Source: Candidatus Sulfurimonas kebritensis (GTDB lineage: Bacteria; Campylobacterota; Campylobacteria; Campylobacterales; Sulfurimonadaceae). From it: DNA of 64,000 nucleotides. Below the pieces are notes generated by a model that ran no database searches, was not told the DNA's origin, and saw nothing but the letters and a program-made list of their open reading frames with translations. Position numbers and translations under genes: made by a program. Positions 19,652-52,495 of this stretch are shown piece by piece. How positions within the stretch are numbered: the stretch's first letter is position 1; each line of letters opens with the position of its first letter. The stretch lies in contig JBEWQA010000004.1 in the NCBI GenBank assembly GCA_047689515.1, positions 157 through 64,156 on the forward strand. Reading direction: 5' to 3'.

Positions 19652-21877
19652 ATGAAAAATATCTCTAAAAAACGATTAAGACTCGATATTGCCGGAGTGG
19701 TGCAAGGTGTCGGGTTTCGCCCTTTTGTATATCAATTAGCACTTGAACACTCTTTAGCCGGATATGTATTAAATAACGGTGAGGGTGTTGTTATAGAGGT
19801 TGAAGGACTAGATAGTTCTATAGAGAATTTTTTAGAAGAGCTGCAGGAGAAACAACCTCCGCTCTCTCGAATAGATACTATAGATATACAAACTCTTGAG
19901 TTCCAAAACACACAAGATTTTTCAATTCTCCGTTCAAAAGAGACAGATGCCACCGCAATGCTCTCGCCAGATATTGCAATATGCCAAGATTGTGCCGATG
20001 AGATGAACGATCCCACAAATAGACGTTATAAGTACCCCTTTATCAACTGCACAAACTGCGGCCCGAGATACACCATCGTAAACGCTTTGCCCTATGATCG
20101 CAAAAATACCTCAATGCAAAGTTTTGAGATGTGTGAGGCGTGTCAAAAGGAGTATAACGATCCCACAAACCGCCGTTTTCATGCACAGCCGATCTCCTGT
20201 TTTGATTGCGGACCTGCATTAAACCTCTCGATCGATGCATTTGTGGAGCATATCAACGATGGCAAGATCGTAGCTCTAAAGGGGATTGGGGGCTTTCACA
20301 TTATCTGTGATGCTACAAACGATCAAGCACTCAAGCAACTCCGAGAACAGAAGAGGCGTCCGAGTAAACCTTTTGCGGTGATGTTTTCAACTCTTGAAGC
20401 GATCAAAAAGGTGGCGGATCTCAGCGAAAAAGATGAGGAACTGATCCTCTCAAAAGAGCGTCCCGTAGTTATAGTGGCTAAAAAAGAGAACAGCTTTTTA
20501 TCCGAACTTATAGCGCCAAACATAGACAGAATAGGTGTCTTTTTACCATACACCCCTTTGCATCTGCTCCTTTTAGAACAGCTTGACAGGCCTATAGTTG
20601 CCACAAGTGCAAACTTGGGGGATGAGCCGATCATCACTCATGAAGAGGAGCTGTTTAAAAAACTTCCCTTTATAGCTGAGGCACTCTCACACGATCGGGA
20701 GATACTTAATGCCTGTGATGACAGTGTGGTTTGCAGTGTCGCAAACAAGCAGGTGTTTTTACGACATGCCCGTGGATTTGCACCACAGAGTTTTCATCAA
20801 AAAAGAAAAACTGCTAAAAAAGTACTTGCACTCGGGGCACATCAAAAAAGCACCGTTACCCTCGCATTTGAAAACACTATGGTCCTCTCTCCCCATATCG
20901 GCGATTTGAATTCACTGGAAGCTTTTGAGTACTTTTTGCGAACTTTAGATACATTTGAGAGAGTGTATGACTTTAAACCCGACATCATTGTGTGTGACAA
21001 ACATCCAAACTATGAAACTACCAAATGGGCCAAGAGTTATATTGTTAAGCATAAAGGGGTGGAGCTGATCGAGGTGCAGCACCATTATGCACATGCACTG
21101 GCGTGTATGGCTGAGCATAATTTGGAGGAGGAGGCTTTAGCTTTTTGTTTTGACGGTACAGGATACGGAGATGACACTACTTTGTGGGGCGGTGAAGTAC
21201 TTCGTGTAACGCCAAATAAGTACAAGCGGCTTTATCATCTTCAGGAGTTCTCACTCTTGGGGGGAGAAAAAGCGGTAAAAGAGCCTAAGCGTATCGCTTT
21301 GTCTCTGCTTTTTGAGTGTTATAGCAAAGAGGAAATTGTGCAGATGGACAATGGGGTCGTAAACTCTTTTTCCAAAAAGGAGATAGAAAATTATCATCTC
21401 ATCCACACAAAACAACTCAACTCCCCTAGAAGCAGTTCGATCGGGAGACTTTTTGACGGCGTTTATGCTTTGAGTGGTAATCTTCAAGAGTTAAGTTATG
21501 AGGGTGAAAGCGGGCTGATCGTAGAGCGATATGCACAAGAGCATAGAAGTGGGGAGAGTTATTCGTATACAATCAATGATGATGTTATAGAGTTTAAAGA
21601 GATGGTTGCAGAGATTTTAAACGAAAAAGAGCACTCTGTGATCGCATCAAAGTTTATAAATACACTTGCAGAGATAGTGCTTACGATCGCACTCAAACAT
21701 CAGGAACTTCCTGTAATACTAAGCGGCGGTGTGTTTCAAAACAAAACTTTGCTTGAAAAAATTGTTGCGCTATTTGAGCAAAACAGTATACGCTACTATT
21801 TTCAAACCAAAACAGCGATCAATGACGGCGGTATATCTTTTGGGCAGGCATATTATGCATTACACAGAGAAAAATAA
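19652..21877 (+). CDS. hypF: [NiFe]-hydrogenase maturation carbamoyltransferase HypF
   Basis: Acylphosphatase N-terminus (GVVQGVGFRPFVY), two CxxC-x18-CxxC zinc fingers, YrdC-like and Kae1-like domains. Confidence 0.95.
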   Translation: MKNISKKRLRLDIAGVVQGVGFRPFVYQLALEHSLAGYVLNNGEGVVIEVEGLDSSIENFLEELQEKQPPLSRIDTIDIQTLEFQNTQDFSILRSKETDATAMLSPDIAICQDCADEMNDPTNRRYKYPFINCTNCGPRYTIVNALPYDRKNTSMQSFEMCEACQKEYNDPTNRRFHAQPISCFDCGPALNLSIDAFVEHINDGKIVALKGIGGFHIICDATNDQALKQLREQKRRPSKPFAVMFSTLEAIKKVADLSEKDEELILSKERPVVIVAKKENSFLSELIAPNIDRIGVFLPYTPLHLLLLEQLDRPIVATSANLGDEPIITHEEELFKKLPFIAEALSHDREILNACDDSVVCSVANKQVFLRHARGFAPQSFHQKRKTAKKVLALGAHQKSTVTLAFENTMVLSPHIGDLNSLEAFEYFLRTLDTFERVYDFKPDIIVCDKHPNYETTKWAKSYIVKHKGVELIEVQHHYAHALACMAEHNLEEEALAFCFDGTGYGDDTTLWGGEVLRVTPNKYKRLYHLQEFSLLGGEKAVKEPKRIALSLLFECYSKEEIVQMDNGVVNSFSKKEIENYHLIHTKQLNSPRSSSIGRLFDGVYALSGNLQELSYEGESGLIVERYAQEHRSGESYSYTINDDVIEFKEMVAEILNEKEHSVIASKFINTLAEIVLTIALKHQELPVILSGGVFQNKTLLEKIVALFEQNSIRYYFQTKTAINDGGISFGQAYYALHREK

Positions 21878-21878
21878 G

Positions 21879-22412
21879 ATGAAAAAAAAAGTTGCACTGA
21901 TCGGTTCGGGAAATATCCTTTTTAAAGATGAAGGCTTAGGTGTTTATATAGTAGAGTATATAGAAAAGAACTACGATTTTTCTGCACCTGTAGATATTAT
22001 AGAGGGTGGCAGTTTAGGGCTTAGGCTGATGGAGCTGCTTCAAGAGTATGAGGAGGTGATCATCGTCAACACCGCTTCGGAGAAAAACAGAGTCCCGGGA
22101 GAGATCATTGTTAAGACGACCGAACAGTTTTTAGAGGGGGAGCAAGTCAAAAAGACAGCAGGTGAAGTGGAGATCGCCGAGATGCTGCAAGTATGTTCAC
22201 TAGAGGGCAATTCAGCTAAAACAACAGTTGTAAGCATAGTCCCCAACGATATCCTCTCGGTAGAGGCGGGAGTAAGTGAGGTGCTAAGAGAGGAGTGGGA
22301 AAAGTATATCCAAACACTGCTCGAGCAACTTGAATCGCTTGGTGTTGCAGCAGAGCAAAGAGAAAATTGTATAGAATTAGATGAGATAGTAAAGAGTTTA
22401 TTTAATTCTTGA
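21879..22412 (+). CDS. Hydrogenase maturation endopeptidase paralog (HybD/HyaD fold) lacking conserved metal ligands
   Basis: GNILFKDEGLG N-terminus. The Asp62-equivalent is Asn (IIVNTAS) and the protein contains no histidine. The ORF track extends to 21729 inside hypF; ATG 21879 follows 1 nt after the hypF stop. Confidence 0.75.
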   Translation: MKKKVALIGSGNILFKDEGLGVYIVEYIEKNYDFSAPVDIIEGGSLGLRLMELLQEYEEVIIVNTASEKNRVPGEIIVKTTEQFLEGEQVKKTAGEVEIAEMLQVCSLEGNSAKTTVVSIVPNDILSVEAGVSEVLREEWEKYIQTLLEQLESLGVAAEQRENCIELDEIVKSLFNS

Positions 22413-22450: not shown

Positions 22451-24877
22451 ATGAGAGTTGTTATTATCGGTGCGGGGATCGCAGGTGCTCATATAGCAAA
22501 CAAGTTAATCCAAGAGGATATCTCCCTTGATATAGTGCTTTTAAGCGATGAGGCATACCCCTCATATGACAGGATCCATCTATGCCGTTTGATAGAGGAG
22601 TCTGATGATCTTAACGATATAAAAATCTCACTCCACCCCAAAATAAAACTCGAACTCCGCCAAAAAATCACGACGCTTGATCGAGAAAACAAACGGGTTA
22701 TGACACAAGATGCGATGTATGGTTACGACAAGCTGATCATCGCTACAGGCTCTACTCCGATCACACTTTTTGATATAGAGGAGATTGCAAACGCCGCTGT
22801 TTTTAGAAGTGCGAGTGACTGTAAAAAGATCCACGATGGTGTTGCAGGCAGAGAACCGGTCATAGTAGGAGCAGGCCCCATAGCCCTGGAGCTTCTCGAT
22901 ACACTCAATGAGATGCCGGATGTAAAGCATGTCACACTTCTTGTACGCTCCAAAGCGCTTTACAGCAAAGACCTCTCAATCGATGCTATCAAAACCATAG
23001 AGGAGTCATATACCGAAAAAGGGAAGATCTCGATATCTTACGAGGATGAGATCGTAGATAAAACTATTCAAAACTCTGAGATAACTTCACTCCAAACCAA
23101 AAAATTAACAATCGAAAACCCTTTTGTGATCTTTGGAGTAGGGATCCGACCAAATATAGATATATTTCGGGATGTATTGCGGGCAAATAAAGGGCTGCTT
23201 ACAAACAACTTTATGCAAACCGAAGATGAAGATATCTATGCGGTGGGGGAGTGTGCCGAAGTGGAAGAGTTTAACTTTGTAGCGGGTCATGTAAAGGCGT
23301 GTACACTGCAGGCTGACTGTGCAATCGCTCACATCTTAAACCTGGAGAAAAAAGAGTTTACCCGTGAGATAGATATAGATATGCTTAAAGTTGGGAATTT
23401 CGATCTTATAGAGGTACGATCCCCTGACTTTTCGAGTGAATATGAAAAGGTTTTGATTACCTCCAAAAAAGAGAATCGGATCGATGAATATTTTTTAAAT
23501 AACGACAAACTGACCCGCTTTATAGGGATCAACTCCAATGTAGATGTAGGTTACCTTGAAAACTTGATGCAAAACGGCGAGAAAGTAGATGTGAACTATC
23601 TCTATGAAAACAGAGTTGTCGGTGAGCGGGGGAGACTTGTATGCAGCTGTGAGCATGTGTATCATCAAGACCTTGTAGATATAGTTACACAAAGCGGTAT
23701 CGGCTCCTTTTCTGAACTGGCAGATTTTTCCCAGGCGGGTCGTGTATGTGGAAAATGTAAGCTGATGGTTGAAGATATCATCAAAGATTCACAAGAGCTC
23801 ATAGACCCAAATATGGTGAAAAAAACCCCTGAAGAGATAGAACGCGAAAAAGAGATCGCAGCTGTGCAAAAGCGCATAGACAAGTTTAATACGCTGCACC
23901 CGAGAAACAATTTAGATGCAGAGAATCTAGAGAATGCCTTGGAATCTTTAGAGATCGAAAAGCATAAAGTCAACAGCTGGATCTCTATGATCACGGCAAA
24001 TATGCAGCTGCACCCTAACTTTGAAGGTGCAGTCAAAAAGGGGATCGAAACACTGAACCGTGTACCGATCATATGGCTGGAGTTAGCTGACTGCAGTGGA
24101 AATTCAGAGGCTTTTATAAAGTCGGAAAACCCTGCGATTGAGGAGCTGATATTTGACTATATTTCGCTTGATTATCATGAGCTTTTGATGACTCCAAGCG
24201 GGGATCAAAGTGAGACAGTCTTAGAAGATATCGTTAAAAACCAAAAAGGGGAGTATGTCCTCATTGTCGAGGGTGCTGTGCCTCTTGCGATGGATGGAAA
24301 GTATCTGCGGATCGGTCCAAAAGGTGAGACAGGTTTGGAGCTGCTGCAAAAAACAGCCAAAGATGCCGCACTCATTATGGCCGTGGGAAGCTGTGCGTTT
24401 GACGGGGGTGTGGTAGCTGCCGCACCAAATCCTACGGGAGCCGTTGGTGTGGCTGAAGCTCTGGGGCGTGATGATGTTATCAATATCCCCGGTTGTCCGA
24501 CAAACCCTGTCAACATCGTGGGAACACTGCTTTCGTACCTGATGTTTGAGGAACTGCCGCCGCTTGACGACTATAACAGACCTCTGTGGGCGTATGAGGG
24601 AAGAATTCATGACAACTGTGAGAGACGCGGACACTACGAACTTGGAGAGTTTGTAAAAGAGTGGGGTGACGAGGGTGCCAAAAAAGGGTACTGCCTCTTT
24701 GAGATGGGGTGTAAAGGTCCCTATGCAAATGCAAACTGTCCTACTATGAAATTTAACGGCGGAACCAGCTGGCCGGTTCAAGCGGGTCACGGTTGTATGG
24801 GGTGTGTAGAGGCAGGCTTTTTTGATAAGTTTGCGACTGAGAGAAAGTATGAAGAGGAAGTAGAAAATGAGTCTTAA
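22451..24877 (+). CDS. Fusion protein: NirB-like FAD/NAD(P)H oxidoreductase + BFD-like [2Fe-2S] domain + [NiFe]-hydrogenase small subunit (no Tat signal)
   Basis: VVIIGAGIAGA, VIVGAGPIALE and AVGECAE (aa 1-300). CSCEHV...GRVCGKCK (aa 398-436). Small-subunit ligands C548, C648, C682, H720, C723, C748, C754, C763, C782, C785 with D. gigas-like spacing. Confidence 0.85.
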   Translation: MRVVIIGAGIAGAHIANKLIQEDISLDIVLLSDEAYPSYDRIHLCRLIEESDDLNDIKISLHPKIKLELRQKITTLDRENKRVMTQDAMYGYDKLIIATGSTPITLFDIEEIANAAVFRSASDCKKIHDGVAGREPVIVGAGPIALELLDTLNEMPDVKHVTLLVRSKALYSKDLSIDAIKTIEESYTEKGKISISYEDEIVDKTIQNSEITSLQTKKLTIENPFVIFGVGIRPNIDIFRDVLRANKGLLTNNFMQTEDEDIYAVGECAEVEEFNFVAGHVKACTLQADCAIAHILNLEKKEFTREIDIDMLKVGNFDLIEVRSPDFSSEYEKVLITSKKENRIDEYFLNNDKLTRFIGINSNVDVGYLENLMQNGEKVDVNYLYENRVVGERGRLVCSCEHVYHQDLVDIVTQSGIGSFSELADFSQAGRVCGKCKLMVEDIIKDSQELIDPNMVKKTPEEIEREKEIAAVQKRIDKFNTLHPRNNLDAENLENALESLEIEKHKVNSWISMITANMQLHPNFEGAVKKGIETLNRVPIIWLELADCSGNSEAFIKSENPAIEELIFDYISLDYHELLMTPSGDQSETVLEDIVKNQKGEYVLIVEGAVPLAMDGKYLRIGPKGETGLELLQKTAKDAALIMAVGSCAFDGGVVAAAPNPTGAVGVAEALGRDDVINIPGCPTNPVNIVGTLLSYLMFEELPPLDDYNRPLWAYEGRIHDNCERRGHYELGEFVKEWGDEGAKKGYCLFEMGCKGPYANANCPTMKFNGGTSWPVQAGHGCMGCVEAGFFDKFATERKYEEEVENES

Positions 24878-26549
24878 AAAAATTGTTATCGATCCCATTA
24901 CGAGAATAGAGGGGCATCTGCGCATAGAGGTTGAGGTGGATGACAATAATGTAGTCCAAGATGCATGGGCGAGCGGACAGCTTTTTCGGGGCATTGAGAC
25001 GATCCTTAAAAACCGCGATCCAAGAGATGCAGGACTCTTGGCGGGTCGTATTTGCGGGGTGTGTACCAACTCCCATTTTCGCGGAGCTATCACTTGTGTA
25101 GAGGATGCATACAACCTTGAGATCCCTAAAAATGCGGAGATCATTCGTGATCTTATGGCTATGGCGCTTTTCATTCAGGACCACGTAGTGCACTTTTACC
25201 ATCTGCACTCACTAGACTATGTGGACGTAACGAGTGCTTTGAAAGCTGATCCGAAAATGACCTCAAAAGAGGCGCACAAGTACCATGAACAACCTTTTAG
25301 AAATTCCCATTCCCATTATGAAGAGACCCTTAAAAAGTTGGAGAACTTTGTCAAAAGCGGCAAGCTCGGCCCCTTTGCTAACGGCTACTGGGGGCATGGG
25401 GCATACAAGCTCACTTCGGAGCAGAACCTGCTTATGATCTCTCATTACCTTGAAGCGCTCAAGTTCCAAACCAAAATCTCCAAAGCGGTAGCGATCTTCG
25501 GTGCAAAAACTCCCCACCCGCAAACGCTTGTAGTGGGCGGAGTGACAAGTGTCGCAGATATGCTTAACCCGCAAAGAGTCAATGACTACCTTTTCATCAT
25601 GAAAGAGGCTAGAGAGTTTATACAGCGTGCCTATCTTCCCGATACAAAACTGCTTGCAAAAGCGTACCGCGAAGAGATAAAAGCGGGAATCGGAAGAGCC
25701 AACGGCAACTATATGTCCTCGGGCGGATACGAGTTTGAAGGGGAGCAAAAGCTCTTTAGTGAGGGGGTGATCTATAACCATGATTTTGAGAATGTCCAAG
25801 AGTTCGATCCCACAAAAGTTTCGGAGAAGGTGGATCGGGCATGGTTCAATGAAAACAGTGACGAAGAGGAGATAAACTACACCGACTTAAACAGCGACGG
25901 CACTTTGAAAACGGCAAAAAATGATGACAAATACTCATGGATTAAAGCGCCGCGCTATGAGGAGCAGACGATGGAAACAGGTCCGCTTGCCAGACTGCTG
26001 ATAAACTACTCAAAAAAGAATCCTCTTATCACTTCGTTTGTGGATGAGTTTTTGAAAGATACCGATCTTGAGCTCATCGATCTGTGTACATCTGTAGGAA
26101 GAAATGCCGCTCGGGCTATAGAGAGCAGTTATGTGTGTGAGTATATCTTCAAAATTGTCTCGGAACTGCTGCAAAATATAAAGTATTACGATACCGAAAC
26201 ATGGACGCAGTACAGCTTTGAGGCCTTAGAGAGTGAGACTCAAGGGAGGGCTTTTTTAGAGGTGCCAAGGGGAACACTTTCGCACTTTATAAACATAAAA
26301 GACGCGAAAATAGAGAACTACTCAGTGATCGCCCCGACAACATGGAACGCCACACCGAAAAACTTTGACGGGCTTCGAGGTGCTTATGAAGAGGGACTGA
26401 TAGGCGTAAAGATAGAGGACAGAGAAAAACCGTTGGAGGTTTTACGGGTGATCCACTCTTTTGACCCATGTCTAGCGTGTGCAGTGCATGTTATAGATGC
26501 AAAAGGGAAGGAGCTTGGAAGGTATAAGATCGCTACAGTGATGAGCTAG
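24867..26549 (+). CDS. [NiFe]-hydrogenase large subunit
   Basis: RIEGH, RICGVC (C63/C66), C-terminal DPCLACAVH (C535/C538/H541) followed by a 19-aa cleavable extension. 11-nt overlap with the small-subunit fusion gene. Confidence 0.95.
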   Translation: MSLKKIVIDPITRIEGHLRIEVEVDDNNVVQDAWASGQLFRGIETILKNRDPRDAGLLAGRICGVCTNSHFRGAITCVEDAYNLEIPKNAEIIRDLMAMALFIQDHVVHFYHLHSLDYVDVTSALKADPKMTSKEAHKYHEQPFRNSHSHYEETLKKLENFVKSGKLGPFANGYWGHGAYKLTSEQNLLMISHYLEALKFQTKISKAVAIFGAKTPHPQTLVVGGVTSVADMLNPQRVNDYLFIMKEAREFIQRAYLPDTKLLAKAYREEIKAGIGRANGNYMSSGGYEFEGEQKLFSEGVIYNHDFENVQEFDPTKVSEKVDRAWFNENSDEEEINYTDLNSDGTLKTAKNDDKYSWIKAPRYEEQTMETGPLARLLINYSKKNPLITSFVDEFLKDTDLELIDLCTSVGRNAARAIESSYVCEYIFKIVSELLQNIKYYDTETWTQYSFEALESETQGRAFLEVPRGTLSHFINIKDAKIENYSVIAPTTWNATPKNFDGLRGAYEEGLIGVKIEDREKPLEVLRVIHSFDPCLACAVHVIDAKGKELGRYKIATVMS

Positions 26550-27072
26550 GGTTATTAAACTTCTCGATCACATCGTTAAGAGATATAGCTGTATCATTTT
26601 TCGTAGCTGTTATATCTGACTCTTTTAAAATGCCAAGAAGTGTTTTTATGTACGTTTCAAATTGTGCGTGCAGTGTGTCGCTCAGACCTATCTCCATCTC
26701 GATCCTCTTGGGAACTATCCCTAGTACACTTGACTTGGGCAGCTCTTTTCCCATAAGCTCCAGGATCTCAAGACATTGCAAAGCACCTACAGCATGTGCA
26801 TCAGCGGAGTTGACTCCAAAGCCGTTTAACTCTTCTGCGGGGATATGGTAGATCGCCCCCGCTTCATCTTCGAGAGCAATAGTATCGAGAATGATAATGT
26901 GTTTATACTCGCTAAAGACATTGAGCAGATCCATCCCCTCGATACCGCCGTTGATGATATCTATGTTTGGAGAGAAGGTGTAATTGCTTTTTAGGTACTG
27001 CGTAGCATAAACGGCGATGCCGTCATCTTTTTGCAGAATATTTCCAACACCTAAAACGGCAAACTCTTTCAT
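26533..27072 (-). CDS. Hydrogenase maturation endopeptidase (canonical HybD/HyaD type)
   Basis: GNILQKDDGIA (D17), IIILDTI (D63), SADAHAVG (H93), corresponding to the HybD Glu16/Asp62/His93 triad. Confidence 0.85.
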   Translation of the reverse strand: MKEFAVLGVGNILQKDDGIAVYATQYLKSNYTFSPNIDIINGGIEGMDLLNVFSEYKHIIILDTIALEDEAGAIYHIPAEELNGFGVNSADAHAVGALQCLEILELMGKELPKSSVLGIVPKRIEMEIGLSDTLHAQFETYIKTLLGILKESDITATKNDTAISLNDVIEKFNNPSSSL

Positions 27073-27142: not shown

Positions 27143-27164
27143 TCCCCGTTATAAGGACTGTTTG

Positions 27165-27806
27165 ATGGAAACTGCTTATTTATTAATGCTTTGGTATGGT
27201 GTTTTGCATGCATTTGGACCAGATCACTTGACTGCCATAGCTGATTTTTCCATTGGAAAGTCTATGAAGAAAACGATGATAATCACTGTCATGTTTGCCT
27301 TTGGGCACGGGATTACACTGTTTGTATTTGCAAAAATATTACAAACCTACAACTTACCAGAAAACATCACCGGTTATGGGGATATAATAGCGTCAAGTGT
27401 CATCATAGGTATGGGTCTGTACCTTTTGTATATGGTCCTAGCAGATAAAATACACCTAAACAAACACGTACACGACGACAAAGAGCATATCCACATCTAC
27501 TTTGGCAAAGAGCACTCCCATAACAGCTCGTACGCTTCAACATCTGCATGGACGATGGGAGCGCTTATGGGGATAGGCGGTGTTCGCGGAATGCTTGTAA
27601 CCCTTGGAGTGTTAGAGAACCAAGTGATAGACTTCTCTATGGTGCTAGCTTTTGTACTGGGCGTGAGTATAATTTTTGTAAGTTTCGGTGCGGTGATTTT
27701 ATATATAAACAAAGAGTTTTTGACAAATCAAACAGATGTAAGAAGAGTGTTTGCAAGCGCGGGAATCATTTCGGTGGCAGTTGGTGCAAATATGCTTTTG
27801 GCATAA
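27165..27806 (+). CDS. Nickel/cobalt transporter (NicO/UreH-like) with a His-rich loop
   Basis: HAFGPDHLTAI signature in TM1. About 6 TM helices. Central loop NKHVHDDKEHIHIYFGKEHSH. Location directly upstream of hypB. The ORF opens at TTG 27162. Confidence 0.7.
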   Translation: METAYLLMLWYGVLHAFGPDHLTAIADFSIGKSMKKTMIITVMFAFGHGITLFVFAKILQTYNLPENITGYGDIIASSVIIGMGLYLLYMVLADKIHLNKHVHDDKEHIHIYFGKEHSHNSSYASTSAWTMGALMGIGGVRGMLVTLGVLENQVIDFSMVLAFVLGVSIIFVSFGAVILYINKEFLTNQTDVRRVFASAGIISVAVGANMLLA

Positions 27807-27827: not shown

Positions 27828-28625
27828 ATGTGTGCAGATTGCGGATGCAGTATAACAGAGACAACTTCGGCAGAAGGGAATGAACATCATCACCATCATG
27901 AGCATAGTCATGACCATTCCCACGAACATCAGGCGGCTCACGAAACACTGCACCATAACCCGCAGTTAAATGACGCGAAAACGATCAGTGTAATTACAAA
28001 AATTTTAGATAAAAACAACCATGAAGCGGCACATAACCGCAGCCATTTTGACAACCATAATGTTCTCAGTATCAACCTTATGAGCTCACCCGGCAGCGGA
28101 AAAACTGCACTGCTTGAAAGCATGGCGGATATGGCTGATTTTAAATTTGGTGTGATCGAGGGGGATTTGGAGACTTCACGCGATGCCGATCGTATTAAGT
28201 CCAAAGGGATCCCCGCATATCAGATCCAAACAGGCTCAGCATGTCATCTGGACGCTTTTATGGTCCATAAGGGGTTGCATGATATGCCGCTTGATGAGAT
28301 CGACGTATGTTTTGTGGAAAATGTAGGCAATCTTGTGTGTCCAGCTTCGTATGATGTGGGCTCGCATCTAAACATTGTCCTTGTTTCAACCCCTGAGGGA
28401 AGTGACAAGATAGAGAAATACCCGGTGATGTTCCGCCAGGCTGATCTGATCCTGATAACCAAGATGGATCTGATCGAGCACTTTGATTATGACCTCGAAC
28501 ACGAGAAAAAAGAGGCAAGAAAAGTAAAACCCAATGTTGACATCCTAGAGGTGAGCATAAAAGACCCCGCATCGATCCAAAGAGTGATAGATTGGATCGA
28601 GTTTAAACGCAAGATGAGAATGTAG
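27828..28625 (+). CDS. hypB: Hydrogenase nickel-incorporation GTPase HypB
   Basis: N-terminal MCADCGC nickel site, His-rich stretch EHHHHHEHSHDHSHEH, P-loop SSPGSGKT, and a second conserved G-domain segment (ENVGNLVCP). Confidence 0.95.
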   Translation: MCADCGCSITETTSAEGNEHHHHHEHSHDHSHEHQAAHETLHHNPQLNDAKTISVITKILDKNNHEAAHNRSHFDNHNVLSINLMSSPGSGKTALLESMADMADFKFGVIEGDLETSRDADRIKSKGIPAYQIQTGSACHLDAFMVHKGLHDMPLDEIDVCFVENVGNLVCPASYDVGSHLNIVLVSTPEGSDKIEKYPVMFRQADLILITKMDLIEHFDYDLEHEKKEARKVKPNVDILEVSIKDPASIQRVIDWIEFKRKMRM

Positions 28626-28626
28626 C

Positions 28627-28917
28627 ATGTGCCTCTCAATTCCGAGCAAAGTAGTGGAGATAGACAAAGAGAGAAACGTAGCAACTCTCGATACTATGGG
28701 GGTTACTCGTGAAGCGGGCTTGGATCTGATGCAAGCTGGGGATGTAAAAGTGGGGGATTATGTACTTTTGCATATCGGTTTTGTTATGAACAAGATCGAT
28801 GAAGCGGATGCTCTGGAGTCTTTGAAAATTTATAGCGAGCTCATTGAGAAGATGGATGAAACTGAGAAAAAAACTCTGATCGAAGAAGATGATAACTGCC
28901 CTGATAGAGGCACATAA
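28627..28917 (+). CDS. hypC: Hydrogenase assembly chaperone HypC
   Basis: MCLSIPSKV N-terminus; 96 aa. Confidence 0.92.
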   Translation: MCLSIPSKVVEIDKERNVATLDTMGVTREAGLDLMQAGDVKVGDYVLLHIGFVMNKIDEADALESLKIYSELIEKMDETEKKTLIEEDDNCPDRGT

Positions 28918-30041
28918 TGAGTGAATTACAGCTAAAAGATCTCTATAAAGGTTTTAGAGCTCCAGAAGTGATTCAGGGTTTTGCAAAACTGATCGAAGAG
29001 GATGCAAAAAAACTTCCACATCCTATAAACATTATGGAAGTATGCGGCGGTCATACCCATACGATCATGAAGTATGGTCTTTTGCAGCTTTTGCCTGAAA
29101 ATATCAACTTTATTCACGGACCTGGTTGTCCTGTCTGCATCATGCCAAAAGAGCGGATCGATCATGCCTACATCTTAGCGATGCAGGAGGATGTGATACT
29201 GGTTACTTTGGGAGATATGATCAAAGTCCCCGGAAGCAAGGGAAGCTTGCAAGATGCTCGCGCAAAAGGTGCGGATGTGCGGTTTGTCTACTCACCTCTT
29301 GATACACTTAAGATCGCAAAAGAAAACCCCGATAAAACAATCATCTTTTTCGCCATAGGTTTTGAGACAACTACGCCTATGACTGCGGCACTTTTAGATG
29401 TCGTAGTGAAGCAAGATATTAAAAATATCTTTTTTCATATAAACCACGTAACGGTTCCAGAAGCGATGGAGCTTCTGCTTTCTGATAAAGAGTGCAGTAT
29501 CGATGCATTTTTGGGGCCAAGCCACGTCAGTGTTATTAGCGGGAGTCAGATCTATGAGAAGTTTCCCCGCGAGTATAAAAAGCCTGTAGTAGTTTCGGGT
29601 TTTGAGCCTGTTGATGTGATGGAGTCGATCTCTATGATTGTAAAACAGTTTGTCCAGAACAGATCTGAGCTTGAGGTGCAGTACAAACGTGCCGTAAACA
29701 GAGAGGGGAATGTGAAAGCACAGGAGTTAAATGATAGGTACTTTGAGAAAGCGGAGCATTTTCGGTTTAGAGGTTTGGGAGATATCCCTGAAGGGGGATT
29801 ACAACTTCGGGATGAGTACAGGGACTATAACGCAGAGGTGGTCTACAAAGACCTGCTTGGCAGCGAGCCGATTGATGATCACAAGCTTTGTATCTGCGGC
29901 GATATACTCAAAGGCAAAGCCAAGCCGCCGCAGTGCTCTATCTTTGGCACCCTCTGTAAACCAAGCTCGCCGATAGGGAGCTGTATGGTAAGCAGTGAAG
30001 GGTCGTGCGCGGCATATTATAAGTATGGAAATTTACTATGA
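28917..30041 (+). CDS. hypD: Hydrogenase formation protein HypD
   Basis: CGGHTH, GPGCPVC and FETT motifs. Start overlaps the hypC stop. Confidence 0.95.
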   Translation: MSELQLKDLYKGFRAPEVIQGFAKLIEEDAKKLPHPINIMEVCGGHTHTIMKYGLLQLLPENINFIHGPGCPVCIMPKERIDHAYILAMQEDVILVTLGDMIKVPGSKGSLQDARAKGADVRFVYSPLDTLKIAKENPDKTIIFFAIGFETTTPMTAALLDVVVKQDIKNIFFHINHVTVPEAMELLLSDKECSIDAFLGPSHVSVISGSQIYEKFPREYKKPVVVSGFEPVDVMESISMIVKQFVQNRSELEVQYKRAVNREGNVKAQELNDRYFEKAEHFRFRGLGDIPEGGLQLRDEYRDYNAEVVYKDLLGSEPIDDHKLCICGDILKGKAKPPQCSIFGTLCKPSSPIGSCMVSSEGSCAAYYKYGNLL

Positions 30042-31036
30042 ATGAGCAAGTAACTCTCTCGATGGGAAACGGCGGTGCAGAGAATAGTGAGCTGATCTCA
30101 AAAGTTTTTTACAAAGCGTTTGCAAACGAGATCTTGGAAAAAAGTGAAGATGCGGCGGTGATCTACGGCGGTGAACTGGCATTCTCAACTGACAGTTTTA
30201 CCGTCTCGCCGATCTTCTTTCCCGGCGGAGATATAGGAAAACTGGCAGTATGCGGAACCTGTAACGATCTTGCGATGATGGGTGCACAACCGAAGTACCT
30301 TACATGCTCCGTAATCATAGAGGAGGGGTTTTCTACTAAAGAGCTTGAGCAGATCGTAGAGTCTATGAAGAAAGAGCTGACGATTAACGGTGCCGTCGTT
30401 GTGAGCGGAGATACAAAAGTGGTTCCAAAAGGGAGTGTGGATAAGATTTTTATCAACACTACGGGGATCGGGGAGATCCAAAAAAAGGGGATAAGCGCAA
30501 ACAAGATCTCAGAGGATGATGCGATCTTGCTCTCTCGCGATATTGGTTGCCACGGGGCGACCATTTTTACAGCTCGCGAAGGGATCGAACTCTCGAGTGA
30601 TCTCCAAAGCGACTGTGCATCTTTGAGTGTACAAGTTGCAGCATTGATCGAAGCGGATGTAAAGATCACCGCTATGCGCGATGCAACACGCGGTGGTGTG
30701 AGTGCCGTACTCAATGAATGGGCAAAACAGTCAAACATCTGCATAGAAGTAGAGGAGGAGAGTATTCCGGTCTCGCAAGAGGTGTATGGAGTGTGTGAGA
30801 TGCTCGGTTTTGAAGCGCTGGATCTGGCAAACGAGGGCACCTTTCTTTTAGCGGTGGCAAAAGATGAAGCAAGCAAAGCGCTTCAGGTGTTGCAGCGTTT
30901 TGAGAACTCTGCAAATGCAGTTAAGATAGCGGATGTCACAAAAGAGTATGTCGGCAAAGTGGTGCTCAAAAGCGGACACGGTACAAAAAGATTTTTAGAG
31001 ATGCCAAGCGGTGAACTCTTGCCGAGGATCTGTTAA
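30038..31036 (+). CDS. hypE: Hydrogenase expression/formation protein HypE
   Basis: PurM-like fold, C-terminal PRIC motif, 4-nt overlap with hypD. Confidence 0.95.
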   Translation: MNEQVTLSMGNGGAENSELISKVFYKAFANEILEKSEDAAVIYGGELAFSTDSFTVSPIFFPGGDIGKLAVCGTCNDLAMMGAQPKYLTCSVIIEEGFSTKELEQIVESMKKELTINGAVVVSGDTKVVPKGSVDKIFINTTGIGEIQKKGISANKISEDDAILLSRDIGCHGATIFTAREGIELSSDLQSDCASLSVQVAALIEADVKITAMRDATRGGVSAVLNEWAKQSNICIEVEEESIPVSQEVYGVCEMLGFEALDLANEGTFLLAVAKDEASKALQVLQRFENSANAVKIADVTKEYVGKVVLKSGHGTKRFLEMPSGELLPRIC

Positions 31037-31055
31037 GTGTATAAAGGGGTGTTTT

Positions 31056-31397
31056 GTGCATGAGTACAGCGTAGTGCAGGCACTGCTCGATCAGGTAGAG
31101 GATCTTGCCACAGAGAATGAGGCTTCAAAGGTCACAAAAATAGTTACAAAAATAGGAGTGATGAGCGGCATAGAAATAGATCTGCTTGAGAGTGCATTTG
31201 ATACTTTTAAAGAACAGACAATATGTGAAGAGGCTGAACTTGTTGTACAAAAACAGCCGGTTGTCGTTCGATGCAATTCATGTAAAGAAGAGAACGCTTT
31301 AGAGAAAAACCACTACTGTTGCCCCCAATGTAAGTCTACAGATCTCAAAGTGATCGACGGGGAAGAGATGTATCTTATGAGTGTAACAATGGAATAA
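31056..31397 (+). CDS. hypA: Hydrogenase nickel-insertion protein HypA
   Basis: A GTG start gives the (M)HEYS nickel motif. Zinc site CNSC...CPQC. AAAGGGG sits 7 nt upstream. The ORF track opens at 31011 inside hypE. Confidence 0.9.
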   Translation: MHEYSVVQALLDQVEDLATENEASKVTKIVTKIGVMSGIEIDLLESAFDTFKEQTICEEAELVVQKQPVVVRCNSCKEENALEKNHYCCPQCKSTDLKVIDGEEMYLMSVTME

Positions 31398-52486: not shown

Positions 52487-52495
52487 AGGATTAGT

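What the first reader, a model, noticed from the sequence alone, without database searches (positions are those of the whole stretch)
22451..24877. [NiFe]-hydrogenase small subunit fused behind a NirB-like FAD/NAD(P)H-[2Fe-2S] reductase module: a candidate two-gene soluble H2:NAD(P)+ oxidoreductase
A single 808-aa ORF carries four parts.
- aa 1-~300: a two-Rossmann pyridine-nucleotide-disulfide-oxidoreductase fold (VVIIGAGIAGA, VIVGAGPIALE, AVGECAE).
- aa 398-436: a BFD-like [2Fe-2S] motif, CxC...CxxC (CSCEHV...GRVCGKCK). This domain order matches the N-terminal electron-input half of NirB/NasB nitrite reductases.
- aa ~455-535: a helical linker where a Tat signal peptide normally sits.
- aa 538-795: a complete hydrogenase small-subunit FeS domain, ending without a membrane anchor.

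The large subunit follows with an 11-nt overlap. The cluster has no cytochrome b, no HoxEFU-type diaphorase and no HyhBG-type subunits. By analogy with NirB run in reverse, electrons could flow H2 -> NiFe -> FeS relay -> [2Fe-2S] -> FAD -> NAD(P)+ within a heterodimer. That would be a much more compact solution than the group 3b/3d soluble hydrogenases. It could feed reductant directly to carbon fixation in a chemolithoautotroph. I cannot tell from memory whether this fusion has been catalogued or characterised.
Basis: partly seen in the sequence, partly recalled or inferred. Interest (0 to 1): 0.75.

Follow-up and report, generated by a model that had tools for sequence, protein, structure and literature searches.

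The report
Hydrogenase fused to its own NAD(P)H module
A Sulfurimonas bacterium, like about 80 related species, encodes a nickel-iron hydrogenase whose small subunit is joined in one protein to a flavin/NAD(P)H-binding reductase, so a two-gene enzyme inside the cell could pass electrons from hydrogen straight to NADP+; no paper I could search describes this, and surveys appear to count it as an ordinary membrane-bound hydrogenase.

Summary
Window 22451-24877 is one uninterrupted 808-aa ORF carrying Pyr_redox_2 (1-270), Fer2_BFD (396-445) and a [NiFe] small-subunit domain (548-795). The large subunit overlaps it by 11 nt, and hyp genes and two maturation proteases flank the pair. The window holds no cytochrome b or diaphorase.

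- **Conservation.** The same fused ORF plus large subunit occurs in about 80 species genomes of Campylobacterota. Every module is under purifying selection, and all FAD, NAD(P)H and Fe-S ligands are invariant in 71 orthologs.
- **Origin.** The "linker" is a relic Tat signal that has lost its twin arginines. The nearest unfused relatives are Tat-exported, cytochrome-b-linked uptake hydrogenases. The enzyme is therefore a group-1-type hydrogenase moved into the cytoplasm and given a NirB-like electron module.
- **Cofactor.** The NAD(P) site has an invariant Arg and no acidic residue, which suggests NADPH.
- **Correction.** The proximal cluster has three Cys plus Asn551.
- **Context.** In 19 genomes the genes sit directly next to an Ech-type hydrogenase operon.
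- **Literature.** No searched paper describes the fusion. Published surveys seem to file it as "membrane-bound group 1b".

Best reading: a cytoplasmic H2:NAD(P)+ oxidoreductase. This rests on sequence analysis only and has not been tested biochemically.

The parts
22451..24877 (+). Fused small-subunit gene (808 aa): FAD/NAD(P)H reductase, BFD [2Fe-2S] domain, relic Tat presequence and [NiFe] small-subunit Fe-S domain
   Evidence: Single ORF. Four Pfam domains. Intact orthologous ORF of about 800-820 aa in nearly all of the 80 genome loci with complete sequence.
22451..23350 (+). aa 1-300: two-Rossmann FAD and NAD(P)H binding domains (GxGxxA at 7-12, E34, GxGPxxxE at 140-147, invariant R166, GECA at 266-269)
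   Evidence: Pyr_redox_2 E 8e-38. pLDDT about 90. Foldseek TM about 0.8 to putidaredoxin reductase, BphA4 and TodA. Motif residues invariant in 71 orthologs. dN/dS 0.16.
23351..23635 (+). aa 301-395: beta-rich third domain of the reductase, equivalent to the C-terminal domain of ferredoxin and rubredoxin reductases
   Evidence: Aligned to 1xhc and 3klj through about aa 320-347. Covered by the roughly 400-residue Foldseek alignments. pLDDT 78-92. dN/dS 0.11.
23636..23788 (+). aa 396-446: BFD-like [2Fe-2S] domain with Cys398, Cys400, Cys433 and Cys436
   Evidence: Fer2_BFD E 2.8e-9, above the gathering score. All four Cys invariant in 71 orthologs. dN/dS 0.16.
23789..24064 (+). aa 447-538: helical linker. 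From about aa 470 it is a relic of a HydA-type Tat presequence whose twin arginine has been lost (RRDFMKW becomes KHKVNSW).
   Evidence: BLASTP against the presequence of a Tat-bearing HydA-like small subunit (L083): E 3e-9, 32% identity. HoxK aa 3-303, signal peptide included, aligns to aa 491-793. None of the distinct ortholog linker sequences printed has an RR. Predicted helices at 460-482, 490-500, 504-514 and 524-534. dN/dS 0.13.
24065..24877 (+). aa 539-808: [NiFe] small-subunit Fe-S domain. Proximal ligands C548, N551, C648, C682. Medial ligands C763, C782, C785 (3Fe type, WP motif). Distal ligands H720, C723, C748, C754. No C-terminal anchor.
   Evidence: Oxidored_q6 and NiFe_hyd_SSU_C. 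About 250-265 bits to group 1 small subunits in the PDB. N551 aligns to Cys20 of HoxK. Ligands essentially invariant. dN/dS 0.05. No membrane helix.
24867..26549 (+). [NiFe] large subunit (560 aa): RICGVC...DPCLACAVH motifs and a 19-aa C-terminal extension to be removed by the maturation protease
   Evidence: PF00374 E 7.7e-193. Sequence. 11-nt overlap with the fused gene. 470 bits to the D. vulgaris Miyazaki enzyme, against 154-161 bits to Huc and to HoxC (the regulatory hydrogenase of C. necator).
19652..21877 (+). hypF carbamoyltransferase
   Evidence: TIGR00143, 815 bits.
21729..22412 (+). HyaD/HybD-type maturation endopeptidase. This is the ORF as listed. The real start is probably near 21816, because the S. 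marina ortholog is 198 aa.
   Evidence: HycI Pfam and TIGR00072, with the match starting at about aa 55. S. marina synteny.
26533..27072 (-). Second HyaD/HybD-type maturation endopeptidase, on the opposite strand
   Evidence: TIGR00072, 120 bits.
27162..27806 (+). Conserved 214-aa protein of the hyp cluster, with no confident family (weak NicO-like hit)
   Evidence: NicO E 8e-4, below cut-off. No NCBIfam hit. 73% identical ortholog in the S. autotrophica hyp cluster.
27828..31397 (+). hypB, hypC, hypD, hypE and hypA maturation genes
   Evidence: Pfam and NCBIfam equivalogs.

Best explanation
The two genes encode a cytoplasmic [NiFe]-hydrogenase whose small subunit carries its own electron-output module, so that H2/H+ is coupled to NAD(P)+/NAD(P)H, probably NADP(H).

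Proposed electron path: H2 is split at the Ni-Fe site of the large subunit. Electrons then pass along the proximal (3 Cys + Asn), medial (3Fe-type) and distal (His + 3 Cys) clusters of the small-subunit domain, on to the fused BFD [2Fe-2S] cluster, then to FAD, then to the nicotinamide bound in the second Rossmann fold. This is the electron-input half of NirB run in the opposite direction.

Proposed origin: the enzyme descends from a Tat-exported, cytochrome-b-linked group-1-type uptake hydrogenase. That ancestor lost its twin-arginine motif, its C-terminal anchor and its cytochrome b, and gained the reductase in front of the old signal peptide, which now serves as a helical linker.

Likely role: it makes NADPH directly from H2 for biosynthesis and reverse-TCA CO2 fixation in sulfur-oxidising Campylobacterota, sparing reverse electron transport.

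Shown: the architecture, its conservation, the cofactor ligands, the loss of export and anchor features, and the relationship to group 1 enzymes. Inferred: the electron path, the NADP(H) preference, the direction and the physiological role.
For: - **Architecture.** One ORF with four domains and E-values of 1e-9 to 1e-38.
- **Not an artefact.** The same fused ORF, immediately followed by the large subunit, is found in 80 loci from GTDB species genomes: Sulfurimonas, Sulfuricurvum, Sulfurovum and Arcobacteraceae. It is also present in the S. autotrophica and S. marina isolates; in S. gotlandica the fused gene is present but about 2 kb of inserted genes separate it from the large subunit.
- **Selection.** dN/dS is 0.11-0.16 for the reductase, BFD and linker parts and 0.05 for the small-subunit domain.
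- **Cofactor ligands.** The FAD motif, E34, the NAD(P) motif, R166 and the four BFD cysteines are invariant in 71 orthologs; the Fe-S ligands are invariant apart from single exceptions at C682 and C785.
- **Reductase fold.** The model is confident for aa 1-390 (pLDDT about 90). It superposes on putidaredoxin reductase, BphA4 and toluene dioxygenase reductase with TM about 0.8. These enzymes exchange electrons between NAD(P)H and [2Fe-2S] ferredoxins.
- **NirB correspondence.** The NirB model matches aa 3-447, that is, its N-terminal FAD/NAD plus BFD half.
- **NADP(H) preference.** The end of beta-2 of the NAD(P) fold reads [I/V/L]-R-[G/S] with no acidic residue. It aligns with 'VTLIARSARVMRK' of PDB 5voh. 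From my own knowledge, 5voh is the engineered NADPH-specific oxidase TPNOX. It scores better than its parent sequence 5er0.
- **Cytoplasmic location.** The N-terminus is a Rossmann strand. The internal Tat relic lacks RR in every distinct ortholog linker sequence printed. There is no anchor and no cytochrome b in the window or in the S. autotrophica and S. marina clusters.
- **Catalytic type.** The large subunit has both Ni-binding motifs and a cleavable C-terminal extension, and dedicated proteases lie beside it.
- **Physiology.** Surveys credit S. autotrophica with a single group I/1b hydrogenase plus Hyc, and it does not grow on H2. Since it carries the fused enzyme, that single entry is most simply this one, though I could not scan its genome for a canonical HydABC. 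That would fit an enzyme that yields reductant but no proton-motive force.
Against: - There are no biochemical data.
- Cell extracts of S. autotrophica showed no H2-uptake activity (cited).
- The Fe-S relay was inherited from quinone-reducing enzymes. Its proximal cluster has only three Cys, and if it is a [3Fe-4S] cluster like those in Huc, the relay may be poised too high for efficient NAD(P)+ reduction at -320 mV.
- AlphaFold gave pLDDT below 50 for the small-subunit half and pTM 0.56. Nothing therefore shows that the BFD cluster can reach the distal cluster.
- The NADPH call rests on one motif.
- In 19 of 82 loci the genes sit directly beside an Ech-type operon on the same strand, which suggests the enzyme may work in a ferredoxin-linked scheme rather than alone.
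- In S. gotlandica the two subunit genes are separated by inserted genes.
Confidence: 0.6

Rival explanations
1. The same enzyme works mainly in the opposite direction in the cell. It would be an NAD(P)H-oxidising, H2-evolving redox valve that disposes of excess reductant.
For: The chemistry is reversible in the known NAD(P)-linked [NiFe] hydrogenases (groups 3b and 3d, established knowledge). S. autotrophica extracts showed no H2 uptake. Nothing in the sequence fixes the direction.
Against: The catalytic core derives from uptake-type group 1 enzymes. H2 evolution from NAD(P)H is thermodynamically poor except at very low H2. The hosts are chemolithoautotrophs that are short of low-potential reductant.
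Confidence: 0.13
2. The fused hydrogenase works together with the neighbouring Ech-type membrane hydrogenase as an H2-mediated link between the NADP(H) and ferredoxin pools. One form: both enzymes draw on H2 to supply the two reductants of the reverse TCA cycle. Another form: an internal H2 loop in which NADPH makes H2 and Ech uses the proton-motive force to push those electrons onto ferredoxin.
For: In 19 of 82 loci an echABCDEF-like operon lies directly next to the genes on the same strand, in two different arrangements. In most Sulfurimonas-type loci it follows the large subunit directly, with a 4-nt overlap in about half of them. In the Arcobacteraceae-type loci it lies upstream, about 0.4 kb before the fused gene as far as echE was mapped. 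S. gotlandica also has ech close by.
Against: Most genomes with the fusion, including this window and S. autotrophica at this locus, have no ech next to it. Adjacency may only reflect shared maturation or regulation. An internal H2 loop would lose H2 by diffusion.
Confidence: 0.1
3. The flavin does not serve NAD(P). H2-derived electrons reaching FAD instead reduce another acceptor such as a quinone (as in NDH-2, AIF or FSP1), O2, or a disulfide or polysulfide (as in CoA-disulfide or sulfur reductases), possibly using the invariant Cys45.
For: The fold family includes quinone, O2 and disulfide reductases. Cys45 is invariant in 71 orthologs and replaces the Ser of the flavin-proximal YDRxxLS motif. 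JGI annotates the protein as 'quinone-reactive'.
Against: The NAD(P)-binding fold is strictly conserved: G140, G142, P143, E147, R166. Cys45 does not align with the redox-active Cys of CoA-disulfide reductase, which aligns to Ile42. There is no second cysteine partner and no membrane-binding segment. The closest relatives are NirB-family and ferredoxin/rubredoxin reductases.
Confidence: 0.12
4. It is a non-energy-yielding H2 sensor or regulatory hydrogenase.
For: It is cytoplasmic and lacks a Tat signal. Cytoplasmic hydrogenases of other Epsilonproteobacteria have been proposed to be sensors.
Against: There is no signalling domain, and no histidine kinase was found among the scanned genes next to it. 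The large subunit keeps the C-terminal extension and its proteases, which group 2b sensors lack (established knowledge). The large subunit is only 24% identical to the sensor HoxC, against 39-48% to uptake enzymes.
Confidence: 0.03
5. The fusion is an assembly or frameshift artefact that joins two separate genes.
For: None, beyond the general possibility.
Against: The same continuous ORF occurs in 80 independent genomes, including complete isolate chromosomes. The junction region is itself conserved and under purifying selection.
Confidence: 0.01

Closest known systems
Group 1 periplasmic, cytochrome-b-linked uptake [NiFe]-hydrogenases (e.g. epsilonproteobacterial HydABC, D. vulgaris Miyazaki, R. 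eutropha MBH)
   Same: The catalytic core matches. The large subunit scores 400-570 bits and is 39-48% identical. The small-subunit domain is 42-48% identical, with the same distal and medial ligands. Even the Tat presequence is still recognisable. The Cys-to-Asn proximal motif (CxGN) is shared with the nearest Tat-bearing relatives.
   Different: There is no twin-arginine motif, no C-terminal anchor and no cytochrome b. A 450-aa FAD/NAD(P)H plus [2Fe-2S] module sits in front. The enzyme is therefore cytoplasmic and not quinone-linked.
NirB/NasB assimilatory nitrite reductase, N-terminal electron-input half
   Same: The same order of FAD Rossmann, NAD(P)H Rossmann, third domain and BFD [2Fe-2S]. 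TIGR02374 matches aa 3-447 to model positions 1-468. The YDRxHL(S/C) motif is shared (NirB sequence from my own knowledge).
   Different: The siroheme/[4Fe-4S] catalytic half is replaced by a hydrogenase small subunit. The proposed electron flow runs the opposite way. The NAD(P) site looks NADPH-type, whereas NirB's has the acidic residue typical of NADH (own knowledge).
Group 3d (HoxFUYH, 'soluble hydrogenase') and group 3b (sulfhydrogenase) NAD(P)-coupled [NiFe]-hydrogenases
   Same: The proposed overall reaction, H2 + NAD(P)+ <-> NAD(P)H + H+, in the cytoplasm.
   Different: The parts are unrelated. Those enzymes use an FMN diaphorase of the complex I type (HoxFU) or HyhBG subunits, with four or more gene products. 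Their large subunits are only distantly related: 80-104 bits to 5xf9 and ShyA. Here there are two genes and an FAD reductase of the glutathione-reductase fold.
Oxygenase-coupled NADH:ferredoxin reductases (putidaredoxin reductase, BphA4, TodA)
   Same: The best structural matches to aa 1-400, with TM about 0.8. These flavoproteins exchange electrons with a [2Fe-2S] protein.
   Different: Their [2Fe-2S] partner is a separate plant-type ferredoxin. Here it is a fused BFD-type domain, and the far end is a hydrogenase.
Group 2d 'Aquificae-type' cytosolic hydrogenase (Aquifex Hase III, S. denitrificans Suden_1437/1438)
   Same: A cytoplasmic, Tat-less [NiFe] hydrogenase in reverse-TCA autotrophs, proposed to supply reductant for CO2 fixation.
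   Different: It is a different enzyme. HydDB-based and tree-based surveys find no 2d enzyme in S. autotrophica, which does carry the fused enzyme. The papers read here mention no fused reductase for 2d.
Huc (group 2a) and cyanobacterial HupS small subunits
   Same: A non-canonical proximal cluster with only three cysteine ligands (own knowledge for Huc and HupS; for this protein).
   Different: They are only distantly related: 94 bits for the small subunit and 154 bits for the large subunit.

Membership tests
[NiFe]-hydrogenase, standard heterodimeric core | Large subunit with N-terminal RxCGxC and C-terminal DPCxxCxxH Ni-Fe ligands | tested here: met
   RICGVC and DPCLACAVH are present. PF00374 E 7.7e-193.
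[NiFe]-hydrogenase, standard heterodimeric core | Small subunit with ligands for proximal, medial and distal Fe-S clusters | tested here: met
   Distal H720/C723/C748/C754 and medial C763/C782/C785 are intact. The proximal cluster has C548/C648/C682 but Asn551 in place of the fourth Cys.
[NiFe]-hydrogenase, standard heterodimeric core | Maturation machinery: hypABCDEF and a specific endopeptidase | tested here: met
   All are present within 19.6-31.4 kb of the window.
HydDB group 1b (prototypical periplasmic membrane-bound uptake hydrogenase) | Large-subunit sequence falls in the 1b clade | tested here: inconclusive
   HydDB is not available here. The best PDB match is the 1b enzyme of D. vulgaris Miyazaki (470 bits), but 1c, 1d and 1e enzymes score 400-448 bits. 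A HydDB-based table lists one '1b' and no other uptake large subunit for S. autotrophica. By elimination that entry is the fused-type enzyme.
HydDB group 1b (prototypical periplasmic membrane-bound uptake hydrogenase) | Tat signal peptide on the small subunit (periplasmic export) | tested here: not met
   The presequence is internal, and RR is replaced by K-H/S/K in every distinct ortholog linker sequence printed.
HydDB group 1b (prototypical periplasmic membrane-bound uptake hydrogenase) | Cytochrome b (or c3) partner and a C-terminal anchor on the small subunit | tested here: not met
   No Ni_hydr_CYTB in the window or in the S. autotrophica and S. marina clusters. No anchor. The unfused relatives have both.
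HydDB group 2d (Aquificae-type cytosolic) | Large subunit in the 2d clade | tested here: not met
   This test is indirect. Surveys report no 2d enzyme in S. autotrophica, which has the fused enzyme. The large subunit is far closer to group 1 (400-570 bits) than to group 2a or 2b (154-161 bits). No 2d reference sequence could be fetched.
Group 2b regulatory (H2-sensing) hydrogenase | Large subunit without a C-terminal extension, plus a partner histidine kinase | tested here: not met
   A 19-aa extension follows DPCxxCxxH. No kinase was found among the scanned genes next to the pair. 24% identity to HoxC.
Group 3b/3d NAD(P)-coupled bidirectional hydrogenases | HoxFU(E)-type or HyhBG-type diaphorase subunits and a group 3 large subunit | tested here: not met
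   Neither occurs in the window. The large subunit gives only 80-104 bits to 3d and 3b references.
NirB/NasB nitrite reductase | N-terminal FAD/NAD(P)H domains followed by a BFD [2Fe-2S] domain | tested here: met
   TIGR02374 matches aa 3-447 to model positions 1-468. Pyr_redox_2 and Fer2_BFD both score above their gathering scores.
NirB/NasB nitrite reductase | C-terminal siroheme/[4Fe-4S] nitrite/sulfite reductase domains | tested here: not met
   No NIR_SIR hit. The whole-protein score of 147 bits is far below the 578 cut-off.
CoA-disulfide reductase / NADH oxidase / NADH peroxidase (single-Cys flavoprotein disulfide reductases) | Redox-active cysteine at the SFxxC(G/A)LP position | tested here: not met
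   In the alignment to B. anthracis CoADR (3cgb), that Cys aligns to Ile42. The invariant Cys45 lies three residues later, at the Ser of the NirB-type YDRxxLS motif.
NAD(P)H:[2Fe-2S] ferredoxin reductases of the glutathione-reductase fold | Three-domain fold with FAD and NAD(P)H sites | tested here: met
   Foldseek TM about 0.8 and rmsd 3.2-3.7 Å over about 400 residues, on a confidently modelled region. Binding motifs are invariant. Flavin content itself cannot be tested with these tools.

The most novel reading that the evidence does not exclude
The fused enzyme is a third, independently evolved way of wiring a [NiFe] hydrogenase to pyridine nucleotides, built from a periplasmic respiratory hydrogenase. 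Where it is operonic with Ech, the pair forms an H2-mediated, proton-motive-force-driven link between NADPH and ferredoxin. That link would explain how reverse-TCA Campylobacterota obtain reduced ferredoxin when growing on sulfur compounds without external H2. It would also mean that many '1b uptake hydrogenase' calls in vent and redoxcline metagenomes do not indicate respiratory H2 oxidation.
Probability: 0.12. Interest if true: 0.85.

Novelty: new variant of a known kind. Interest (0 to 1): 0.68.

Why it matters
If the enzyme does what its parts imply, four things follow.

1. It would be the most compact NAD(P)-linked [NiFe] hydrogenase known, with two genes instead of four to six. Its catalytic core comes from the robust group 1 uptake enzymes. 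That makes it attractive for H2-driven NADPH regeneration in biocatalysis.

2. It shows a clear evolutionary route by which a periplasmic respiratory hydrogenase was moved into the cytoplasm. The dead Tat signal remains as a fossil linker.

3. It affects ecological inference. These large subunits seem to be counted as "membrane-bound group 1b" in surveys of Sulfurimonas, Sulfurovum and Arcobacteraceae. Some predicted "hydrogen oxidisers", S. autotrophica among them, may only use H2 as a source of biosynthetic reductant, not as an energy source.

4. The recurrent operon link with Ech gives a testable lead on how reverse-TCA autotrophs balance their NADPH and ferredoxin pools.

Tried and rejected
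- **Split versions of the fusion.** None were found. The 600-aa variant P0122/P0292, which lacks the FAD Rossmann fold, is a decaying pseudogene: a separate Pyr_redox_2 fragment lies upstream, the large subunit is in three pieces, and a medial-cluster Cys has changed to Tyr.
- **Other fusions among the nearest small subunits.** Long relatives such as Helicobacter P0142 (808 aa) and P0130 (594 aa) carry extensions with no recognisable domain. P0132/P0288 is a small-subunit-like protein with an N-terminal Fer4 domain. It sits next to HdrA-like and FlpD genes with no large subunit, so it is not a hydrogenase of this kind.
- **Whole-chain AlphaFold2.** I ran it with 88 orthologs at 72% identity or more. 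The reductase was modelled well, but the small-subunit half fell below pLDDT 50 and pTM was 0.56. No coordinates are returned, so cluster-to-cluster distances could not be measured.
- **Fetching a group 2d reference.** I searched metagenome contigs for the published Suden_1437 primer and found no match. The Greening 2016 and Grote 2012 papers are not held. The Han and Perner supplement has no locus tags.
- **The disulfide-reductase reading of Cys45.** I set this aside as the main reading, because Cys45 does not align with the catalytic Cys of CoADR.
- **Literature.** Six searches combining hydrogenase, small subunit, fused/fusion, FAD, BFD, pyridine nucleotide, Sulfurimonas, Campylobacterota and Epsilonproteobacteria found no description of this architecture.
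- **Other hydrogenase genes in the window.** The Pfam scans found none.

Full report
**Observation.**
Window 22451-24877 (+) is one 808-codon frame without a stop. It has a Shine-Dalgarno-like AGGGG 8 nt before the ATG. Pfam finds four domains, all above their gathering scores:
- Pyr_redox_2, aa 1-270, E 8e-38
- Fer2_BFD, aa 396-445, E 2.8e-9
- Oxidored_q6, aa 548-695
- NiFe_hyd_SSU_C, aa 715-795

NCBIfam gives hydA (TIGR00391, aa 490-797, 368 bits). It also matches aa 3-447 to positions 1-468 of the 794-position NirB model.

The next gene (24867-26549, 560 aa) is a [NiFe] large subunit, with PF00374 at E 7.7e-193. It carries RICGVC and DPCLACAVH followed by a 19-aa C-terminal extension. It overlaps the fused gene by 11 nt.

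Around the pair lie hypF, two HyaD/HybD-type endopeptidases, a conserved 214-aa protein, and hypB, C, D, E and A. Pfam scans of 50 of the window's ORFs, covering most of the non-overlapping ones, found no cytochrome b, no HoxEFU-type diaphorase and no HyhBG-type subunit.

**Is the fusion real?**
The closest database proteins are full-length, about 805 aa, and share the same architecture. They come from Sulfurimonas marina (88% identity), S. sp. C5, S. gotlandica GD1 (75%), S. autotrophica (72%) and many metagenome-assembled genomes. The window shares gene order with the S. marina chromosome, so it comes from a close relative of that species.

I scanned one genome per GTDB species with an alignment of the N-terminal 540 aa. 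This returned 89 genomes, of which 80 loci are kept. They are Sulfurimonas, Sulfuricurvum, Sulfurovum and Arcobacteraceae, at 52-71% identity. In essentially all loci with enough sequence, the fused ORF is intact at about 800-820 aa and is followed directly by the large subunit. Two loci are broken (L052, L077). One contig labelled Flavobacteriaceae is probably misbinned.

An exhaustive HMMER search of 1.84 billion cluster representatives found only one further full-length representative (P0121, 63% identity) besides fragments. The fusion is therefore one narrow family, seen here only in Campylobacterota. It is not an assembly artefact.

**Constraint on the parts.**
I made a codon alignment of 71 orthologs and kept the 103 pairs with dS between 0.05 and 1.5. 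dS is close to saturation, so the ratios below are approximate.

| Region | Median dN/dS |
|---|---|
| FAD/NAD(P)H domains | 0.16 |
| Third reductase domain | 0.11 |
| BFD domain | 0.16 |
| Linker | 0.13 |
| Small-subunit domain | 0.05 |

The following residues are invariant in all 71 sequences:
- G7, G9 and E34 (FAD fold)
- Y39, R41, L44 and C45 of the YDRxxLC motif (D40 in 70 of 71)
- G140, G142 and E147 (NAD(P) fold; P143 in 70 of 71)
- R166
- G266 and E267
- The four BFD cysteines (398, 400, 433, 436)
- Every Fe-S ligand of the small-subunit domain, apart from single exceptions at C682 and C785

**The reductase module.**
AlphaFold2 models aa 1-390 with pLDDT of about 90. Foldseek places this part on putidaredoxin reductase, BphA4, toluene dioxygenase reductase and related ferredoxin reductases, with TM about 0.8 over roughly 400 residues. 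By sequence, the nearest solved proteins are the P. furiosus "NADH oxidase/nitrite reductase" 1xhc and the NirB-family rubredoxin reductase 3klj. These enzymes move electrons between NAD(P)H and a small iron-sulfur protein, which is what the fused BFD domain would be here.

The end of beta-2 of the NAD(P) fold reads [I/V/L]-R-[G/S], with no acidic residue. It aligns with "VTLIARSARVMRK" of PDB 5voh. From my own knowledge, 5voh is the oxidase engineered for NADPH specificity (TPNOX). It scores better than its NADH-specific parent 5er0. I therefore predict a preference for NADP(H), and this is inference only.

The invariant Cys45 does not align with the catalytic cysteine of CoA-disulfide reductase, which falls on Ile42. 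Cys45 instead occupies the Ser position of the NirB-type YDRxxLS motif.

**The linker is a dead Tat signal.**
The nearest unfused small subunits are about 45-50% identical. They are P0125 (a Bacillota metagenome-assembled genome), P0127, P0128 and P0131, and they align from about aa 465 of the fused protein. Three of these (P0125, P0127, P0131) are encoded in operons of small subunit, large subunit and cytochrome b.

The unfused relatives carry genuine twin-arginine motifs (TRRDFIRW, TRRELLKW, and NRRDFMKW in the Tat-bearing small subunit encoded beside P0127), and P0125 and P0131 carry a C-terminal hydrophobic anchor. P0127 itself lacks the twin arginine. Residues 474-539 of the fused protein align to the presequence of one such HydA-like protein at E 3e-9, with RR replaced by KH. 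The signal peptide of R. eutropha HoxK also falls inside its BLASTP alignment to aa 491-793. None of the distinct linker sequences printed from the 71 orthologs retains RR.

Taken together, the small subunit of a periplasmic, quinone-reducing uptake hydrogenase lost its export motif, its anchor and its cytochrome b. It acquired a reductase at its N-terminus. The N-terminus of the fused protein is a Rossmann strand, and the protein has no membrane-helix-like segment. It should therefore be cytoplasmic.

**The Fe-S relay.**
The distal ligands (H720, C723, C748, C754) and the medial ligands (C763, C782, C785, with the WP motif typical of a 3Fe cluster) are canonical. In the proximal cluster, the position of HoxK Cys20 is Asn551 in all 71 orthologs. 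The same CxGN motif occurs in the nearest Tat-bearing relatives. It was therefore inherited and is not tied to the fusion. Whether this cluster is [3Fe-4S] or an Asn-ligated [4Fe-4S] is unknown. This matters, because a high-potential relay would hinder NAD(P)+ reduction.

**Which hydrogenase group?**

| Comparison for the large subunit | Score or identity |
|---|---|
| D. vulgaris Miyazaki (group 1b) | 470 bits |
| Group 1c, 1d and 1e structures | 398-448 bits |
| Cytochrome-b-linked relatives | 43-48% identity |
| R. eutropha HoxG (group 1d) | 39% identity |
| Huc (group 2a) | 154 bits |
| HoxC (group 2b) | 161 bits, 24% identity |
| Group 3 enzymes | 80-120 bits |

It is thus a group-1-type enzyme.

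Published surveys agree indirectly. Han and Perner (PMC4584964) and Molari et al. (PMC10066037, Supplementary Table 5, classified with HydDB) list a single group I/1b hydrogenase and no group II/2d enzyme for S. autotrophica. That genome carries the fused enzyme. By elimination, the fused type is what they call "membrane-bound group 1b", and it is not the 2d cytosolic enzyme of S. denitrificans. I could not run HydDB or fetch a 2d reference.

S. autotrophica has not been shown to grow on H2, and its extracts showed no uptake activity. That fits an enzyme which yields reductant without proton-motive force. It could equally mean the enzyme is poorly expressed.

**Context elsewhere.**
In 19 of 82 loci, an echABCDEF-like group 4 hydrogenase operon lies on the same strand directly next to the genes. 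The arrangement takes two forms:
- In most of the Sulfurimonas-type loci it follows the large subunit directly, with the stop and start codons overlapping by 4 nt in about half of them.
- In the Arcobacteraceae-type loci it lies upstream, about 0.4 kb before the fused gene as far as echE was mapped.

Two different arrangements suggest selection for co-expression. Ech enzymes link H2 to ferredoxin and an ion gradient (established knowledge). The pair could therefore deliver NADPH and reduced ferredoxin from H2, or shuttle electrons between the two pools. This window has no ech.

**Mechanism and confidence.**
My best reading, at confidence 0.6, is a cytoplasmic H2:NAD(P)+ oxidoreductase with the path Ni-Fe, three Fe-S clusters, BFD [2Fe-2S], FAD, NAD(P)+.
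- Shown: the architecture, the conservation, the ligands, the loss of export and anchor features, and the group 1 ancestry.
- Inferred: the electron path, the nucleotide preference, the direction and the role in carbon fixation.

The rivals are the reverse direction (0.13), another flavin acceptor (0.12), an Ech-coupled scheme (0.10), a sensor (0.03) and an artefact (0.01).

**Novelty.**
Databases annotate the protein only as "hydrogenase small subunit" or "quinone-reactive Ni/Fe-hydrogenase small subunit", and once as "hyaluronate lyase". Six full-text searches found no description of the fusion. The library does not hold most subscription journals, so an earlier mention cannot be excluded. 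I rate it a new variant of a known kind: a [NiFe] hydrogenase with a previously undescribed, fused electron-output module.

Noticed in passing
L020, L023, L025, L027-L034, L039-L042, L051, L052, L069, L082 (e.g. L025 12072-16631; L040 3054-7591): In 19 of 82 loci an echABCDEF-like group 4 hydrogenase operon lies on the same strand directly next to the fused hydrogenase genes. In Sulfurimonas-type loci it follows the large subunit, often with a 4-nt overlap. In Arcobacteraceae-type loci it lies upstream of the fused gene. This window has no such operon.
   Followed up: partly
window 21729-22412 (+) and 26533-27072 (-): Two HyaD/HybD-type maturation endopeptidase genes flank a single hydrogenase gene pair. 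S. autotrophica has only one at this locus. The second may serve a hydrogenase encoded elsewhere in the genome.
   Followed up: no
window 27162-27806 (+): A conserved 214-aa protein sits between the hydrogenase and hypB. It has no confident family (weak NicO-like hit, no NCBIfam hit). It is 73% identical in S. autotrophica, and S. marina has two similar-sized unannotated (no Pfam) genes at the corresponding positions. It may be a nickel-uptake membrane protein.
   Followed up: no
L086 7480-11408: A decaying copy of the system. The reductase is split off as a 116-aa fragment, the remaining 604-aa fused protein has a medial-cluster Cys changed to Tyr, and the large subunit is in three pieces. 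This is a lineage that is losing the enzyme.
   Followed up: yes
L083 6660-11606: Two small-subunit genes lie in tandem before one large subunit and a cytochrome b. The first has a Tat motif (NRRDFMKW). In the second (P0127) the motif has degenerated to DDEKFIKW, and a Glu occupies the fourth proximal-ligand position.
   Followed up: no
L087 10001-22424 (S. gotlandica GD1): The fused gene and its large subunit are separated by about 2 kb holding a YjbR-like gene and a SulP transporter gene on the opposite strand. A P-type ATPase, a CLC channel and then echA and echB follow.
   Followed up: no
L089 4478-9074: A hydrogenase-small-subunit-like protein (P0288, 357 aa) has an N-terminal Fer4 domain in place of a signal peptide. 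It is encoded after an HdrA-like flavoprotein and FlpD, and no large subunit is nearby.
   Followed up: partly
P0142 (808 aa, Helicobacter saguini), P0130 (594 aa, H. cetorum): These Helicobacter small subunits carry 200-420 aa C-terminal extensions in which Pfam recognises no domain.
   Followed up: partly
L061 (contig JAOZVI010000184.1): A 3.7-kb contig binned as Flavobacteriaceae carries the fused gene at 58% identity. It is the only non-Campylobacterota label among the 80 loci and is most likely a binning error.
   Followed up: no
P0024: One ortholog, from Helicobacteraceae bacterium CG2_30_36_10, is named 'hyaluronate lyase' in NCBI. JGI names the family 'quinone-reactive Ni/Fe-hydrogenase small subunit'. 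Both names are misleading.
   Followed up: no
window 16341-18224 (+) and 33126-35255 (+): A 627-aa ORF has no Pfam family. A 709-aa protein carries an N-terminal WD40 beta-propeller and is conserved at the same position in S. marina.
   Followed up: no
window 50771-55675 (+): An AMP-binding (acyl-CoA synthetase-like) gene is followed by E1-alpha, E1-beta and E2 genes of a 2-oxoacid (acetoin or pyruvate type) dehydrogenase complex. This is unexpected in a reverse-TCA autotroph that uses ferredoxin-dependent oxidoreductases.
   Followed up: no
H1, plasmid NZ_CP041407.1 (Sulfurimonas paralvinellae, 49.8 kb): A Sulfurimonas plasmid carries a hydrogenase small-subunit and large-subunit pair (46.5% identity to the window large subunit), with two matching places in the record.
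   Followed up: no
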